Part shown: in pieces, positions 17,953 through 42,237 of the stretch
How the letters are laid out: each line of letters begins with the position of its first letter
Position numbering within the stretch: position 1 is the first letter of the stretch
NCBI GenBank assembly: GCA_964016885.1
Contig: OZ024741.1
Location: forward strand, 383,842,001-383,906,000
Direction of reading: 5' to 3'
From: Eledone cirrhosa
Taxonomy: Eukaryota
DNA length: 64,000 nucleotides
Program-made: the position numbers and the translations under genes
Notes under the pieces: model-generated
Databases searched by the model: none
The model's input: the letters and a program-made list of their open reading frames with translations, nothing else
What the model was told of the DNA's origin: nothing

Positions 17953-20714
17953 ATTTATACCATGCTGAGCGTCACTCTAGAGATCTTTCGATGACTCTTG
18001 ATGTTGTTACTGATTTTCATCTTCTTCTAGATGTTGCTGATGATGTTGCTGCTGCTACTATTGTTGTTGTTGTTATTGTTTGTATAATTATTAACTTTCT
18101 TAAGAGAATCGGTAAAGTTGCACGATTCTGAATCTAATTAAACCGACCACACAATAGCTTTATCCAGGCATAGATTAAGGATGGTGTCTAGAAAATAAAG
18201 TAAAGGAGTGGAACTATTATTACCTTGCATCATCATTTTATAATTCTATTCATATCTAGGATTCCAATATTTGATTGGTACTTTATTTTACCGACTCCAG
18301 GAAAACACAAGAAAAAGTTAATCTTGGCAAGATTTAAAATCAGAACTTAAAGATTGTACTCTAATATTGCTAGGTATTTTGTCCGACGCCATGAATGTTC
18401 TATTAATCCAATGTGATATGCTTTTATTAAATGAACATAGATAAGTAACACTGATTCCTACCTTGATTCTCACTTTGATCGCTTGTTCATATTTTGGGGA
18501 CTGTTAGAATGAGAGATAGAGAGAGAGGGGGGGGAAGGAATTTGTGGTAGTGTATCCGAGACAGACGAAGATCACATAGAGTGCTTAGTTGCATTTATTT
18601 TAAAATTATTATTGCATTTTTAAAACAATGCCGCCACGAGTTAGAAGATTCCAAGAGGTCAATCACTGCCATTACAATGGCGAGAGTAATAACGGAACGT
18701 TTATATAGCTCAGGCGGAACAAATATCATGGATCATTTTCTTTCTAAAACACTGGACTTTCGGCTGTCTCACCGACGTTTATATATGTAAAAGAAACTTG
18801 TTCAGGATTCGAACCCGAAATCAATTTTCTCTGGAATTCATCTTTACATTTCATTTATTCAAGTTCGATCTTACAAATGCCAGTAACACATTCGTCGATT
18901 TAATCAACTCTTAACTCCTCGCTTCAAAATTCGCTGTTGTGTTTGCTTTTTCAAAAATCAATATTTCATATAGTTTTCCTCTAGAGTGTGAGTTGTTGAT
19001 AGATCTTCGAAATTCCATTACTCAGTTAAATTATTTGGTAAATAGATTTTAGTAAGTACCCTGCATAACACCCGTTTTCTCTTTTATCTTGTTTATTCCC
19101 GATTTAGAGTTGTGTAGCAGATAGCAGAATGATTAATCGTCCTCTTTAACAATTTACCCCTCGACATCTACTAATTGAAGGAACACGAAATATACCCATA
19201 AACATTCTGCATCAATGTTAAACTAATCCTAATTATTGCTGGCTGCAATTGACGGGAATCCTATTTAACTAATGTTTATCACTTGTCTACACTTGTCTAC
19301 TTAACGCCATGAAACTGAAACCAAATACTGACACTTTAGAGACCTTCGGGTTTCAGAAGGTATTAAAAAATCTATTCTTAAATCAAAAGTGTAATCATAC
19401 TGATATATAACGTGTACAGTTAACCAAATATCAGAAACAGAATTAAGTACGTTTGTTAAGTAAAGGATGTCCCTACTTTTAAATAGAAAGTATGACATCA
19501 AAATGAGAAAACATTCATCTGACACCAGTAAATGAATGATGTCACGATTTTATATAAATGACAGAGGAACAGTTCTAATTTCTAATGGTATTAGCGATGC
19601 AAACTAAATCAGTAATTCTGACTGTGAAACCGAAAACATCTCTACAACGACGATAATTATAACCACATAAGTGTCAGTGATGACAATGATAAATACGGTG
19701 ACCAGATTCGTGTCTTGATTTCTTAGCGAAACAATGCAACTGCTGCAGAAAGATACGGAATCACACCTCAAAAACCAAGAGACCAGAATATGTGTTGCTT
19801 TTGAACTATAGAAAATCTTTATATTTAAGAGCGGTGAGCATATCGTATTTTAGCAAAGAATCGAAGAACGTGTCGCGAATTCGAGTCACTAGATGATTAC
19901 CTCACGCTCTACAGCCAATTCCTTATGTAAATTTAACCTGTAACTTGGATTTAAAACCATCATCTGACCCTTGAGTAATTTAGCGGAATCTACTCTATTA
20001 CAAGAATTTGGGTTAAGTGTTGTGTGCGGATGAATTCCACCTGACCTTTTACCTGTATTTGAAGTCTTAAAAAGGACAAGTACAATGTCTCCCTCTCTCC
20101 ACTGATAACGTCAGGTAAAACAAATTAAATAAATAAAATAAGGCGGTTGCTCACTAGGTCAATGAAACAGTCATTCAAGTACAGGTATCGATTTCAATCG
20201 AGTGTACCCCCGCCTAAATGTGTGACCACGTGCCAATCAATAATAATATTAGAGATGAAAAAATCGTCTAGTTTTCTCTTTTAAAATTTAGTTATGTCGC
20301 TGTGTTAGAAATCAACATTTACAAGCCACCACGGTGATCTTCCATGAATTGCTTTTCTTTTCTATGTATTTTTTTTAATTACAAACACTACTCAAAAACA
20401 AAAACAAAAGCAAAAACAAAAGCGGAAACTTTTTGAGTTAATGTGTTCTACTATGATTCCTTTCGTTCACATAGAGATTAATCAATATTATTAAAAAAAA
20501 GATAGATCGGAAAAACAAGGTAAATAGTCTAATAATGGTTAAATTGCTTAAAAAAATATTCGCATGCTCGATATCCTCTTGATATAGGAATTAGAAATTA
20601 ATAAAAATGTCGTGTATTTGACTTAATATTTCTTGAACTATATATATATATATTAGAAAGTGAGGTTTTTTTACAAAATGAAAAAAAAAACGAGGTGTCT
20701 TACACGAGTGAAAG

Positions 20715-21002
20715 TATAAGGAAAATAAATGAAATCGAAAATGCAACTGGAGTCTTTTTATATAAAAATATATATTTATTTGGTTCCTTTACCGGTTTCG
20801 CAGTTCTTCTGCTTTTCAAAAGTAGAGTTGAGATGGAGGGCTTGTGGTTTTTCTCAGATGTGAAATAAACCACAAACCCTCCATCTCAATTCTACTTTTG
20901 AAAAGCAGAAGAACTGCGAAACCGGTAAAGGAACCAAATAAATATATATTTTTATATAAAAAGACTCCAGTTGCATTTTCGATTTCATCTTTTTTCCTTA
21001 TA
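20715..21002. repeat. About 290-bp near-perfect palindrome carrying hammerhead motifs, next to (TA)n
   Basis: Arms about 20715-20855 and 20860-21002 are reverse complements. Confidence 0.9.
20895..20930 (+). ncRNA. Minimal type I hammerhead ribozyme-like motif, U3-A8 core variant (mirror copy on - at 20787-20822)
   Basis: CUU-UUGAAAA-GCAG(AAGAA)CUGC-GAAA-CCGG-UA-AAG. Confidence 0.6.
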
Positions 21003-21029
21003 TATATGTATACAAATATATATATATAT

Positions 21030-31996: not shown

Positions 31997-32518
31997 GATA
32001 TTGTTATACTTTGGGAGGGTCATGTTGCCAATAAGAAACACACGCACCAGTTGCTTTCACTTCAATTTAATTTATTAAATATTTATAAATTTACAAATTT
32101 ATAAATTTCTGGTTGGTTGGTTGGTTCCACAACCAGATAGTTGTTTATATATATATAGTCATAGTTCTTTCGTCACACACTCTGTGACCTCTTCAGTGAC
32201 TGGGGATTTCTTTCTTCGTTTCTGTGCCTTTCCTTTCTTCTATCCTACGCCATTTTGTTTGTCAAACAAAATGGCGTAGGATAGAAGAAAGGAAAGGCAC
32301 AGAAACGAAGAAAGAAATCCCCAGTCACTGAAGAGGTCACAGAGTGTGTGACGAAAGAACTATGACTATATATATATAAACAACTATCTGGTTGTGGAAC
32401 CAACCAACCAACCAGAAATTTATAAATTTGTAAATTTATAAATATTTAATAAATTAAATTGAAGTGAAAGCAACTGGTGCGTGTGTTTCTTATTGGCAAC
32501 ATGACCCTCCCAAAGTAT

Positions 32519-32524
<6 letters not shown>
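31997..32524. mobile_element. About 530-bp essentially perfect palindromic element (family B), between (TA)n tracts
   Basis: Centre attttgttt-gtc-aaacaaaat at about 32262. The extension 31940-31996 matches 24599-24657. Confidence 0.9.
32323..32367 (+). ncRNA. Minimal type I hammerhead ribozyme (mirror on - at 32157-32201)
   Basis: AGUCA-CUGAAGA-G-GUCACA(GAGUG)UGUGAC-GAAA-GAAC-UA-UGACU. Confidence 0.8.
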
Positions 32525-32553
<29 letters not shown>

Positions 32554-41857: not shown

Positions 41858-41904
41858 GGCTCTGATGATTCCCGCCATGGTGTATGGATGAAACACTGTT
41901 AGCT
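41858..41904 (+). ncRNA. Minimal type I hammerhead ribozyme
   Basis: GGCU-CUGAUGA-U-UCC..GGA-U-GAAA-CACUG-UU-AGCU, followed by AATAAA and a terminus that is inverted at 41707-41742. Confidence 0.6.
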
Positions 41905-41989
41905 AATAAAACAATGTATTTCTAAGTACTCTTTGGTTATTCCTATAACTATATATAACAAACATCACGGACGCTCTATCTCAAAATTA

Positions 41990-42025
41990 TTTTTGAAAAG
42001 CATTAGAAATGCGCAACCGGTAAAA
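41990..42025 (+). ncRNA. Degenerate U3-A8 hammerhead motif (GAAA changed to GCAA)
   Basis: UUU-UUGAAAA-GCAUU(AGA)AAUGC-GCAA-CCGG-UA-AAA. Confidence 0.45.
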
Positions 42026-42172
42026 CTTAAAACCAAAACTGAATACTAACCAATACTATTACTAATTATCAGTTATTCCTAATTAAACTATTTTTCACTG
42101 TGAACAATTTGTCAGCATTTTCTATTCCGTTTACCAATATATCATAACTTGGGTGTTACACCTCTATTCTTT

Positions 42173-42237
<65 letters not shown>

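What the first reader, a model, noticed from the sequence alone, without database searches (positions are those of the whole stretch)
20895..20930. Hammerhead core variant UUGAAAA with compensatory U3-A8 pair
Seen: the core reads UUGAAAA instead of CUGANGA, followed by an intact stem II, GAAA, palindromic CCGG and a GUA site. The same core recurs at 41990 with a covarying stem II (GCAG/CUGC versus GCAU/AUGC). Known: C3-G8 is a Watson-Crick pair in the active fold and U3-A8 can replace it. Standard consensus searches would miss this variant.
Basis: partly seen in the sequence, partly recalled or inferred. Interest (0 to 1): 0.75.

Follow-up and report, generated by a model that had tools for sequence, protein, structure and literature searches.

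The report
Known U3-A8 hammerhead in Penelope retrotransposons
This is one of many thousand copies of a likely self-cutting RNA motif at the end of a Penelope-type jumping gene, with a swapped core base pair that has been in print since 2011; the one surprise is a sister family that spread to over ten thousand copies with a further core change that would likely slow or stop cutting.

Summary
It is the pseudo-LTR hammerhead of a Neptune/Nematis-type Penelope-like retrotransposon (RT, CX4CX2C linker, GIY-YIG), 14,135 exact-pattern copies in this genome. Genome-wide, positions 3 and 8 are overwhelmingly paired (C3-G8 35,864; U3-A8 19,557; U3-G8 1,285; C3-A8 866), and U3-A8 marks at least three unrelated lineages. 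The variant is published: Perreault 2011, and Cervera and De la Pena 2014, who list the same UUGAAAA core in a Schistosoma Penelope element. This scan also noted U3-A8 before on other DNA, including this genome. The copy at 41993 is not 'the same core': it reads GCAA, not GAAA (A13C). C13 is the fixed state of a sister, young, protein-coding family (11,392 copies versus 158 non-C13). Cleavage is untested; stem I is only 3 bp, a rival hairpin is predicted to mask the core, and copy ends do not pile up at the cut site. Verdict: new member of a known kind; the C13 family is a modest, testable lead on whether Penelope elements need their ribozyme.

The parts
20647..21012 (.). Family A insertion: two head-to-head, 5'-truncated pseudo-LTR arms of a Penelope-like element, flanked by (TA)n; no coding sequence
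   Evidence: blastn of full-length copy L104 against the window: minus arm 20862-20647 (91%), plus arm 20855-21012 (92%); no tblastn hit of the element's proteins in the window; inverted repeat I24
20895..20930 (+). Minimal type I hammerhead motif, family A (the finding)
20898..20904 (+). Core U3-U4-G5-A6-A7-A8-A9 (U3 20898, A8 20903)
   Evidence: sequence; numbering as in PMC4209133
20905..20917 (+). Stem II GCAG/CUGC with 5-nt loop; first pair G10.1-C11.1
   Evidence: predicted pairing probability 0.94
20918..20927 (+). G12-A13-A14, self-complementary ACCGGU (stem III of a predicted dimer), A17; predicted cut between 20927 and 20928
   Evidence: palindrome duplex -8.3 kcal/mol, formed in the two-copy cofold; monomer hammerhead fold +2.4 kcal/mol
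20886..20901 (+). Predicted rival hairpin UCAA/UUGA that pairs U3-A6 (UCAAAA/UUUUGA in family B)
   Evidence: in the minimum-energy fold of both families; P(U3 paired) 0.83 and 0.99, P(stem I first pair) 0.006 and 0.000
20787..20822 (-). Inverted twin of the hammerhead, identical core
20647..20714 (-). About 68-nt extension ('tail') present on one arm only
   Evidence: minus arm extends to element position 243, plus arm to 175
41959..42183 (+). Family B solo pseudo-LTR (sister Penelope-like family)
   Evidence: 89% to full-length copy L140
41990..42025 (+). Family B hammerhead motif: U3-A8 core, stem II GCAU/AUGC, G12-C13-A14 (C13 at 42014), ACCGGU, A17
   Evidence: C13 is the family state

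Best explanation
The motif is the pseudo-LTR hammerhead of a Neptune/Nematis-type Penelope-like retrotransposon, carrying the published U3-A8 core swap, and it likely cleaves slowly and only as a dimer, with two sense copies pairing through ACCGGU to build stem III and cutting after GUA. Shown: the sequence, its place at both ends of full-length RT-endonuclease elements, its copy number, and pairing of positions 3 and 8 across families. Inferred: in tandem transcripts of full-length elements the 5' and 3' (or two molecules') copies would dimerise and trim the precursor about 170 nt upstream of the first ATG. The window copy itself is a truncated fold-back insertion whose antisense twin would pair with it in any read-through transcript, so this copy is likely silent. 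The sister family B keeps the same scaffold with A13C, which likely slows it further or stops it, yet that family amplified recently.
For: Full-length copies with the motif in both pLTRs around RT and GIY-YIG: L104, L099, L102 (family A), L140 (family B). Pfam RVT_1 (E 2.5e-5 and 9.8e-7, both just under the curated cut-off) and GIY-YIG (E 1.4e-5 and 9.1e-7, above it); C-x4-C-x2-C linker. No CUGANGA...GAAA core on either strand of the two full-length elements scanned. One generic pattern, four 3/8 states, whole genome: C3-G8 35,864 (reversed-pattern control 254), U3-A8 19,557 (841), U3-G8 1,285 (435), C3-A8 866 (297). Structure scan of 851 kb of held loci with positions 3 and 8 free: U3-A8 in three unrelated lineages (A/B; the GCCC/GGGC family in L101, L025; the tandem retrozyme-like family in L192, L021, L186), several C3-G8 families, two single U3-G8 hits, no C3-A8; 3 hits in 3 shuffles. 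A versus B identity is 0.84 over the core, 0.44-0.50 in the 60 nt after it, background 0.47. Palindrome duplex -8.3 kcal/mol; monomer fold unfavourable. Same UUGAAAA core and the dimer model in PMC4209133.
Against: No cleavage assay and no RNA data. Stem I is 3 bp (2 A-U + 1 C-G in A; 3 A-U in B) and is out-competed by a hairpin that pairs U3-A6, also in the two-copy cofold. In a pairwise-mutagenesis study of another hammerhead only the G3-C8 swap rescued activity, not U3-A8 (PMC9901934 passage). Copy 5' ends cluster 32-49 nt upstream of U3 (15 of 32 A copies, 10 of 31 B copies, all chosen for an intact core), and only 248 genomic copies lack the core just upstream of the cut site, of which 17 of 30 inspected are true junctions: about 1% of the family and no clear peak. 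A-B conservation extends about 90 nt upstream of the core (0.69-0.84), so it is not specific to the ribozyme. Family B spread with A13C.
Confidence: 0.72

Rival explanations
1. The motif descends from a hammerhead but no longer cleaves in either family; the region is kept because it overlaps the promoter/transcription start or the RT recognition signal of the pLTR.
For: Weak stem I and rival hairpin in both families; A13C fixed in B; conservation between A and B covers 90 nt upstream as well; copy ends cluster upstream of the core, not at the cut; Naiad elements proliferate without canonical hammerheads (PMC8557442 passages).
Against: All core letters other than 13, the G10.1-C11.1 pair, the palindrome and GUA survive between families whose RTs are 56% identical; U3 and A8 changed together in at least three lineages; published Penelope hammerheads with 2-3 bp stem I still cleave weakly (PMC4209133).
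Confidence: 0.2
2. Both families cleave: U3-A8 together with C13 is a tolerated natural double variant, helped by the dimer or by a protein chaperone.
For: C13 is shared by all three loop subfamilies of B seen here (UUAGAA, UUUAGAA, UAAGAA types) while the rest of the motif is intact; B is young (11 other B loci 94-99% identical to L140 over the RT, 5 of them above 98%); A13 changes are cited as 10-100-fold inhibitory, less than changes at C3, G5, G8, G12, A14 (PMC4075628 passage).
Against: A13 is part of the consensus core used to reject hits (PMC3088659); all other single and double core mutants were low-activity in PMC9901934; B stem I is three A-U pairs with predicted probability 0.000. 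Retention of the other letters may be simple descent.
Confidence: 0.15
3. Chance resemblance: an A/U-rich pLTR stretch that happens to fit a relaxed hammerhead pattern and was then multiplied by transposition.
For: Folding z-scores are unremarkable (-0.9, -0.6, -1.6); Rfam hammerhead models give no hit; copy number reflects transposition, not selection.
Against: Right place (pLTR, both ends), right strand, no other hammerhead core in the element; architecture matches the published Penelope consensus; descriptor gives about 1 hit per shuffled 851 kb.
Confidence: 0.04

Closest known systems
Minimal hammerheads of Penelope-like elements, U3-A8 variant of Schistosoma mansoni Cercyon elements (Cervera and De la Pena 2014, PMC4209133; main text parts 1-2 of 4, supplement file 2 parts 1-2 of 3 read)
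   Same: Type I, in pLTRs, palindromic stem III, 3-bp stem I, G10.1-C11.1; about 1,300 U3-A8 hits reported; supplement Fig. S3 row S. mansoni(4) has the same UUGAAAA core; opposite-strand pairs close together also reported.
   Different: Here: octopus-like host (inferred from homologue names), Neptune/Nematis-type carrier, 6-nt ACCGGU palindrome, 4-bp stem II, no extra base between A9 and G10.1, at least 14,000 copies; sister family with A13C, not among the rows of Fig. S3, whose GAAA column shows only GAAA and one AGAAA.
Natural U3-A8 core covariants (Perreault et al. 2011, PMC3088659; section 8 and passages read)
   Same: Same compensatory swap of the C3-G8 tertiary pair, stated to occur in several natural examples and to be active in vitro (citing Przybilski and Hammann 2007, which was not held and not read).
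   Different: The A13C change is not among the variants named in that section (A6C, A6a, U13a, U15.1-A16.1, U10.1-U11.1); figures and supplements S6/S7 were not seen.
Neptune and Nematis clades of EN+ Penelope-like elements (Craig et al. 2021, PMC8557442; introduction and passages read)
   Same: RT, CX2-5CxxC linker, C-terminal GIY-YIG with CCHH, pLTRs, inverted 5'-truncated arm, one-sided tail, (TA)n targets, optional frameshifted ORF1.
   Different: Clade not fixed by a tree here; tail about 68 nt instead of 30-40.
Dimer-cleaving small hammerheads of Penelope-like retrotransposons (Lunse, Weinberg, Breaker, RNA Biol 14:1499; not held, known only from the review PMC6765202 passages and reference list)
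   Same: Short palindromic stem III, dimer cleavage, low rates.
   Different: Could not check whether it lists U3-A8, C13 or cephalopod examples.

Membership tests
Hammerhead ribozyme, type I | Three helices around the core in type I order | tested here: met
   Stem I 3 bp, stem II 4 bp, stem III 1 bp as monomer or 6 bp as dimer; stem I is predicted unstable
Hammerhead ribozyme, type I | Core U4 G5 A6 N7 A9 G12 A13 A14 A15.1 U16.1 H17 (family A, the finding) | tested here: met
Hammerhead ribozyme, type I | Same core in family B (copy at 41993) | tested here: not met
   C13 in 11,392 copies; non-C13 in 158
Hammerhead ribozyme, type I | Watson-Crick pair between positions 3 and 8 | tested here: met
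   U3-A8; paired states are 97.5% of generic-pattern hits after subtracting controls; three independent U3-A8 lineages
Hammerhead ribozyme, type I | Rfam hammerhead model score | tested here: not met
   No hammerhead family at E<=10; the canonical C3-G8 repeat in L195 also gets no hit at the gathering score, so the models are insensitive to this architecture
Hammerhead ribozyme, type I | Self-cleavage after H17 | not testable with these tools
   No assay; no RNA holder listed
Penelope-type minimal hammerhead (Cervera 2014) | Located in pLTRs flanking a PLE ORF | tested here: met
   L104, L099, L102, L140
Penelope-type minimal hammerhead (Cervera 2014) | Palindromic stem III allowing a dimer | tested here: met
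   ACCGGU in both families
Penelope-type minimal hammerhead (Cervera 2014) | Extra nucleotide between 9 and 10.1 (usual, not universal) | tested here: not met
   Absent; also absent in the Marsupenaeus and Saccoglossus(2) rows of Fig. S3
EN+ Penelope-like element, Neptune/Nematis type | RT followed by C-terminal GIY-YIG endonuclease | tested here: met
EN+ Penelope-like element, Neptune/Nematis type | CX2-5CxxC linker and CCHH motif | tested here: met
   C-x4-C-x2-C and two Cys inside GIY-YIG read in the translations
EN+ Penelope-like element, Neptune/Nematis type | Direct or inverted pLTRs, 5' truncation, tail, (TA)n target | tested here: met
   20 of 30 loci hold the motif on both strands (neighbouring loci overlap, so not 30 independent sites)
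EN+ Penelope-like element, Neptune/Nematis type | RT phylogeny places it in Neptune rather than Nematis | not tested
   No reference set or tree built

The most novel reading that the evidence does not exclude
A young, protein-coding Penelope family reached more than 11,000 copies after fixing A13C on top of U3-A8, so its hammerhead is catalytically dead and Neptune-type elements transpose without self-cleavage; families A (A13) and B (C13) form a natural on/off pair for testing what the pLTR ribozyme is for. The alternative outcome, an active U3-A8/C13 core, would be a core variant that the two targeted paper searches did not find in print.
Probability: 0.4. Interest if true: 0.5.

Novelty: new member of a known kind. 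Interest (0 to 1): 0.27.

Why it matters
The U3-A8 swap itself is settled knowledge; here it only adds a very high-copy animal example and shows that CUGANGA-based searches would miss roughly a third of the hits of one generic hammerhead pattern in this genome (19,557 of 55,421 paired hits), plus all of family B. The open question it touches is whether Penelope-like elements need their hammerhead at all (stated as unclear in PMC8557442): a successful family with a second core change offers a cheap bench test.

Tried and rejected
Rfam scans: whole window (150 of 178 rows shown, none a hammerhead, nearly all hairpin-type miRNA models below their cut-off), local scans and three loci gave no hammerhead; the weak MALAT1 hit (21.4 bits against 70, E 0.52) was rejected as chance. 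Counting 3/8 states inside family A: rejected as a test of compensation (single changes only; all 100 listed of 132 non-U3 copies keep A8). Copy ends as a footprint of cleavage: no clear peak (rough estimate, biased sample). A second, canonical hammerhead elsewhere in the elements: none in L104 or L140. A shifted register for family B (C as an insertion, C15.1-G16.1) and a permuted core using the GAAA in loop II were considered by eye only and dropped because stem II or the A15.1-U16.1 pair would be lost. Paper searches: 'hammerhead'+'U3-A8' gave 1 paper; 'hammerhead'+'A13C' gave 1 irrelevant paper; one search gave 2, one search gave 21 (19 listed). Not held, hence unread: Lunse 2017, Przybilski and Hammann 2007, Nelson and Uhlenbeck 2008, Scott 2013, Martick and Scott 2006; supplement file 1 of PMC4209133 could not be searched and the supplements of PMC8557442 and PMC3088659 were not opened; any of these may list C13 or cephalopod motifs. 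A fuzzy-regex script timed out.

Full report
OBSERVATION. The plus strand at 20895-20930 reads as a minimal type I hammerhead: stem I CUU/AAG, core UUGAAAA (U3 20898, A8 20903), stem II GCAG/CUGC, GAA, ACCGGU, A17 at 20927. The pattern occurs three times in the window and never in 100 shuffles: at 20898 (+), at 20819 (-) and at 41993 (+). The minus-strand copy is the mirror arm of a 142-bp, 96% inverted repeat. Rfam's hammerhead models report neither copy.

WHAT IT IS. The window lies in a 3.0-Gb genome whose element proteins have octopus and bivalve homologues as best named hits (67% to an Octopus sinensis protein); an octopus-like host is inferred. A pattern for the motif with positions 7 and 8 free finds 14,135 copies, control 0: family A. 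Walking upstream from copies that keep more sequence leads to the end of a GIY-YIG domain; a search with that piece returned 30 loci, in 15 of which the motif pattern was matched within the locus. Longer stretches show full-length elements with the motif at both ends of the ORF region (L104, L099, L102). The protein has RT (Pfam RVT_1, E 2.5e-5, under the curated cut-off), a C-x4-C-x2-C linker and GIY-YIG (E 1.4e-5). By the definitions in PMC8557442 (introduction and passages) this is an EN+ Penelope-like element of the Neptune/Nematis type; no tree was built. The window copy is a head-to-head pair of 5'-truncated pseudo-LTRs in (TA)n with a tail on one arm and no coding DNA, the arrangement described in PMC8557442 and PMC3846280 (passages). 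No CUGANGA...GAAA core exists elsewhere in the two full-length elements scanned, so this motif is the element's hammerhead.

THE SECOND COPY. GCAA is not decay of one copy. The C13 pattern has 11,392 matches; B-type copies with any other base at 13 number 158 and are a mix of U, A and G (100 listed). Family B is a separate protein-coding element: L140 has pLTR-ORFs-pLTR, RVT_1 and GIY-YIG hits, 56% identity to family A over 630 residues. Over the RT, 11 other B loci are 94-99% identical to L140 (5 above 98%), whereas 39 family A loci are 92-98% identical to L098 (self and overlap rows left out; some remaining loci overlap each other), so B is at least as young as A.

DO POSITIONS 3 AND 8 COVARY? 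Inside family A, no test is possible: 132 copies lack U3 and 67 lack A8, and all 100 listed non-U3 copies keep A8. Across families, one generic pattern run four times gives C3-G8 35,864, U3-A8 19,557, U3-G8 1,285 and C3-A8 866, with reversed-pattern controls of 254, 841, 435 and 297. Many of the listed mismatch hits are recognisably single-change copies of the large families. Copies are not independent, so lineages matter more: a structure scan of 851 kb of held loci found U3-A8 in three unrelated lineages (A/B; a GCCC/GGGC family with an ACGUACGU palindrome; a 316-bp tandem retrozyme-like family whose stems II and III covary between L192, L021 and L186), several C3-G8 families, two single U3-G8 hits and no C3-A8, against 3 hits in 3 shuffles. 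The compensation reading is thus supported at the family level.

HOW IT LIKELY WORKS. As a monomer the hammerhead fold is unfavourable (+2.4 kcal/mol for A, +7.0 for B); two copies pair through ACCGGU (-8.3 kcal/mol), and this duplex appears in the cofold. That matches the dimer model for Penelope hammerheads, which cleave weakly in vitro and are proposed to process precursor RNA (PMC4209133; review PMC6765202 passages). In full-length copies the predicted cut lies about 170 nt before the first ATG. These steps are inferred. Against efficient cleavage: stem I is 3 bp and is out-competed by a hairpin that pairs U3-A6 in both families; U3-A8 was not rescued in one pairwise-mutagenesis study (PMC9901934 passage), though PMC3088659 cites in vitro activity for covarying 3/8 pairs; copy 5' ends cluster 32-49 nt upstream of U3 (15 of 32 A copies, 10 of 31 B copies, chosen for an intact core), and copies that begin at the cut site are about 1% of the family (248 hits, 17 of 30 inspected being true junctions), similar per base to the sparse starts just upstream. 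The window copy itself would fold back on its antisense twin (-216 kcal/mol over 288 nt) and is likely inert. For family B, A13 changes are cited as 10-100-fold inhibitory (PMC4075628 passage), so cleavage is likely slower or absent.

COMPARISON WITH WHAT IS KNOWN. Natural U3-A8 covariation was reported in PMC3088659 (section 8). In Penelope elements it was reported in PMC4209133: about 1,300 hits in Schistosoma mansoni, with the same UUGAAAA core in supplement Fig. S3. Earlier notes of this scan also record U3-A8 in other genomes and in a retrozyme family of this genome; none of them holds the word A13C. Two targeted paper searches found no natural C13 hammerhead, but five key papers were not held and several supplements were not seen.

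VERDICT. New member of a known kind; interest 0.27. The finding as written is ordinary. The residual value is family B: a recent, very successful autonomous family with a second core change, usable as a natural control for the unresolved role of pLTR ribozymes (called unclear in PMC8557442).

Noticed in passing
L104:2265-3700 (+), L140:6014-4500 (-), also L099, L100, L102, L105, L119, L145: Families A and B both have an upstream ORF1 and the RT-endonuclease ORF in the -1 frame, joined at a shared U UUU UUA heptamer (6 T in 7 of 9 distinct copies, 5 T and 7 T in one each). Likely programmed -1 frameshift (slippery-site label recalled); a hairpin follows in A, none was predicted in B. Frameshifted ORF1 is mentioned for some PLEs in PMC8557442 Fig. 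1 legend; which clades could not be seen.
   Followed up: partly
3' UTR of L104 and L140, 400 nt before the 3' hammerhead: Repeated GCGCGAAA/GGCGCAAAA, CCAAT and CACGTGAC/CACATGAC motifs are kept in both families; they resemble E2F, NF-Y and E-box sites (names recalled), suggesting a cell-cycle-type internal promoter upstream of the hammerhead.
   Followed up: no
family A and B copies (L031-L060, L109-L138): 5' ends of copies cluster at two places: 32-49 nt and about 180 nt upstream of U3; possibly transcription starts or pLTR boundaries.
   Followed up: partly
L192 (G000:C1:6519946-6521556), L021, L186: 316-bp tandem array in (TA)n with a U3-A8 hammerhead and a real stem III; relatives show covarying stems II and III: a retrozyme-like U3-A8 family.
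   Followed up: partly
L101, L025: Third U3-A8 lineage: UUGAGAA core, GCCC/GGGC stem II, ACGUACGU palindrome, 2-bp stem I, ending in (TA)n; carrier element not identified.
   Followed up: no
window 24848(-)/24973(+) and 32196(-)/32328(+): Two more head-to-head pairs of a very abundant C3-G8 hammerhead family; the pair at 31998-32526 is a perfect 264-bp inverted repeat; the 24848 copy has a lone U3-G8 change. Its stem III (AGAACU) is not a perfect palindrome.
   Followed up: partly
window 41862-41905 (+): Degenerate C3-G8 hammerhead-like motif inside a short inverted-repeat element (41702-41745/41914-41957) directly before the family B copy.
   Followed up: no
L212, L215-L218, L224: Short tandem duplications that begin at the first base after the predicted cut site (6 of 30 loci); the search pattern selects for that start, so enrichment is unknown.
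   Followed up: no
G000:C1:5738326-5752444: Long 466-bp tandem array with a canonical C3-G8 hammerhead and ACUAGU palindrome; retrozyme-like.
   Followed up: no
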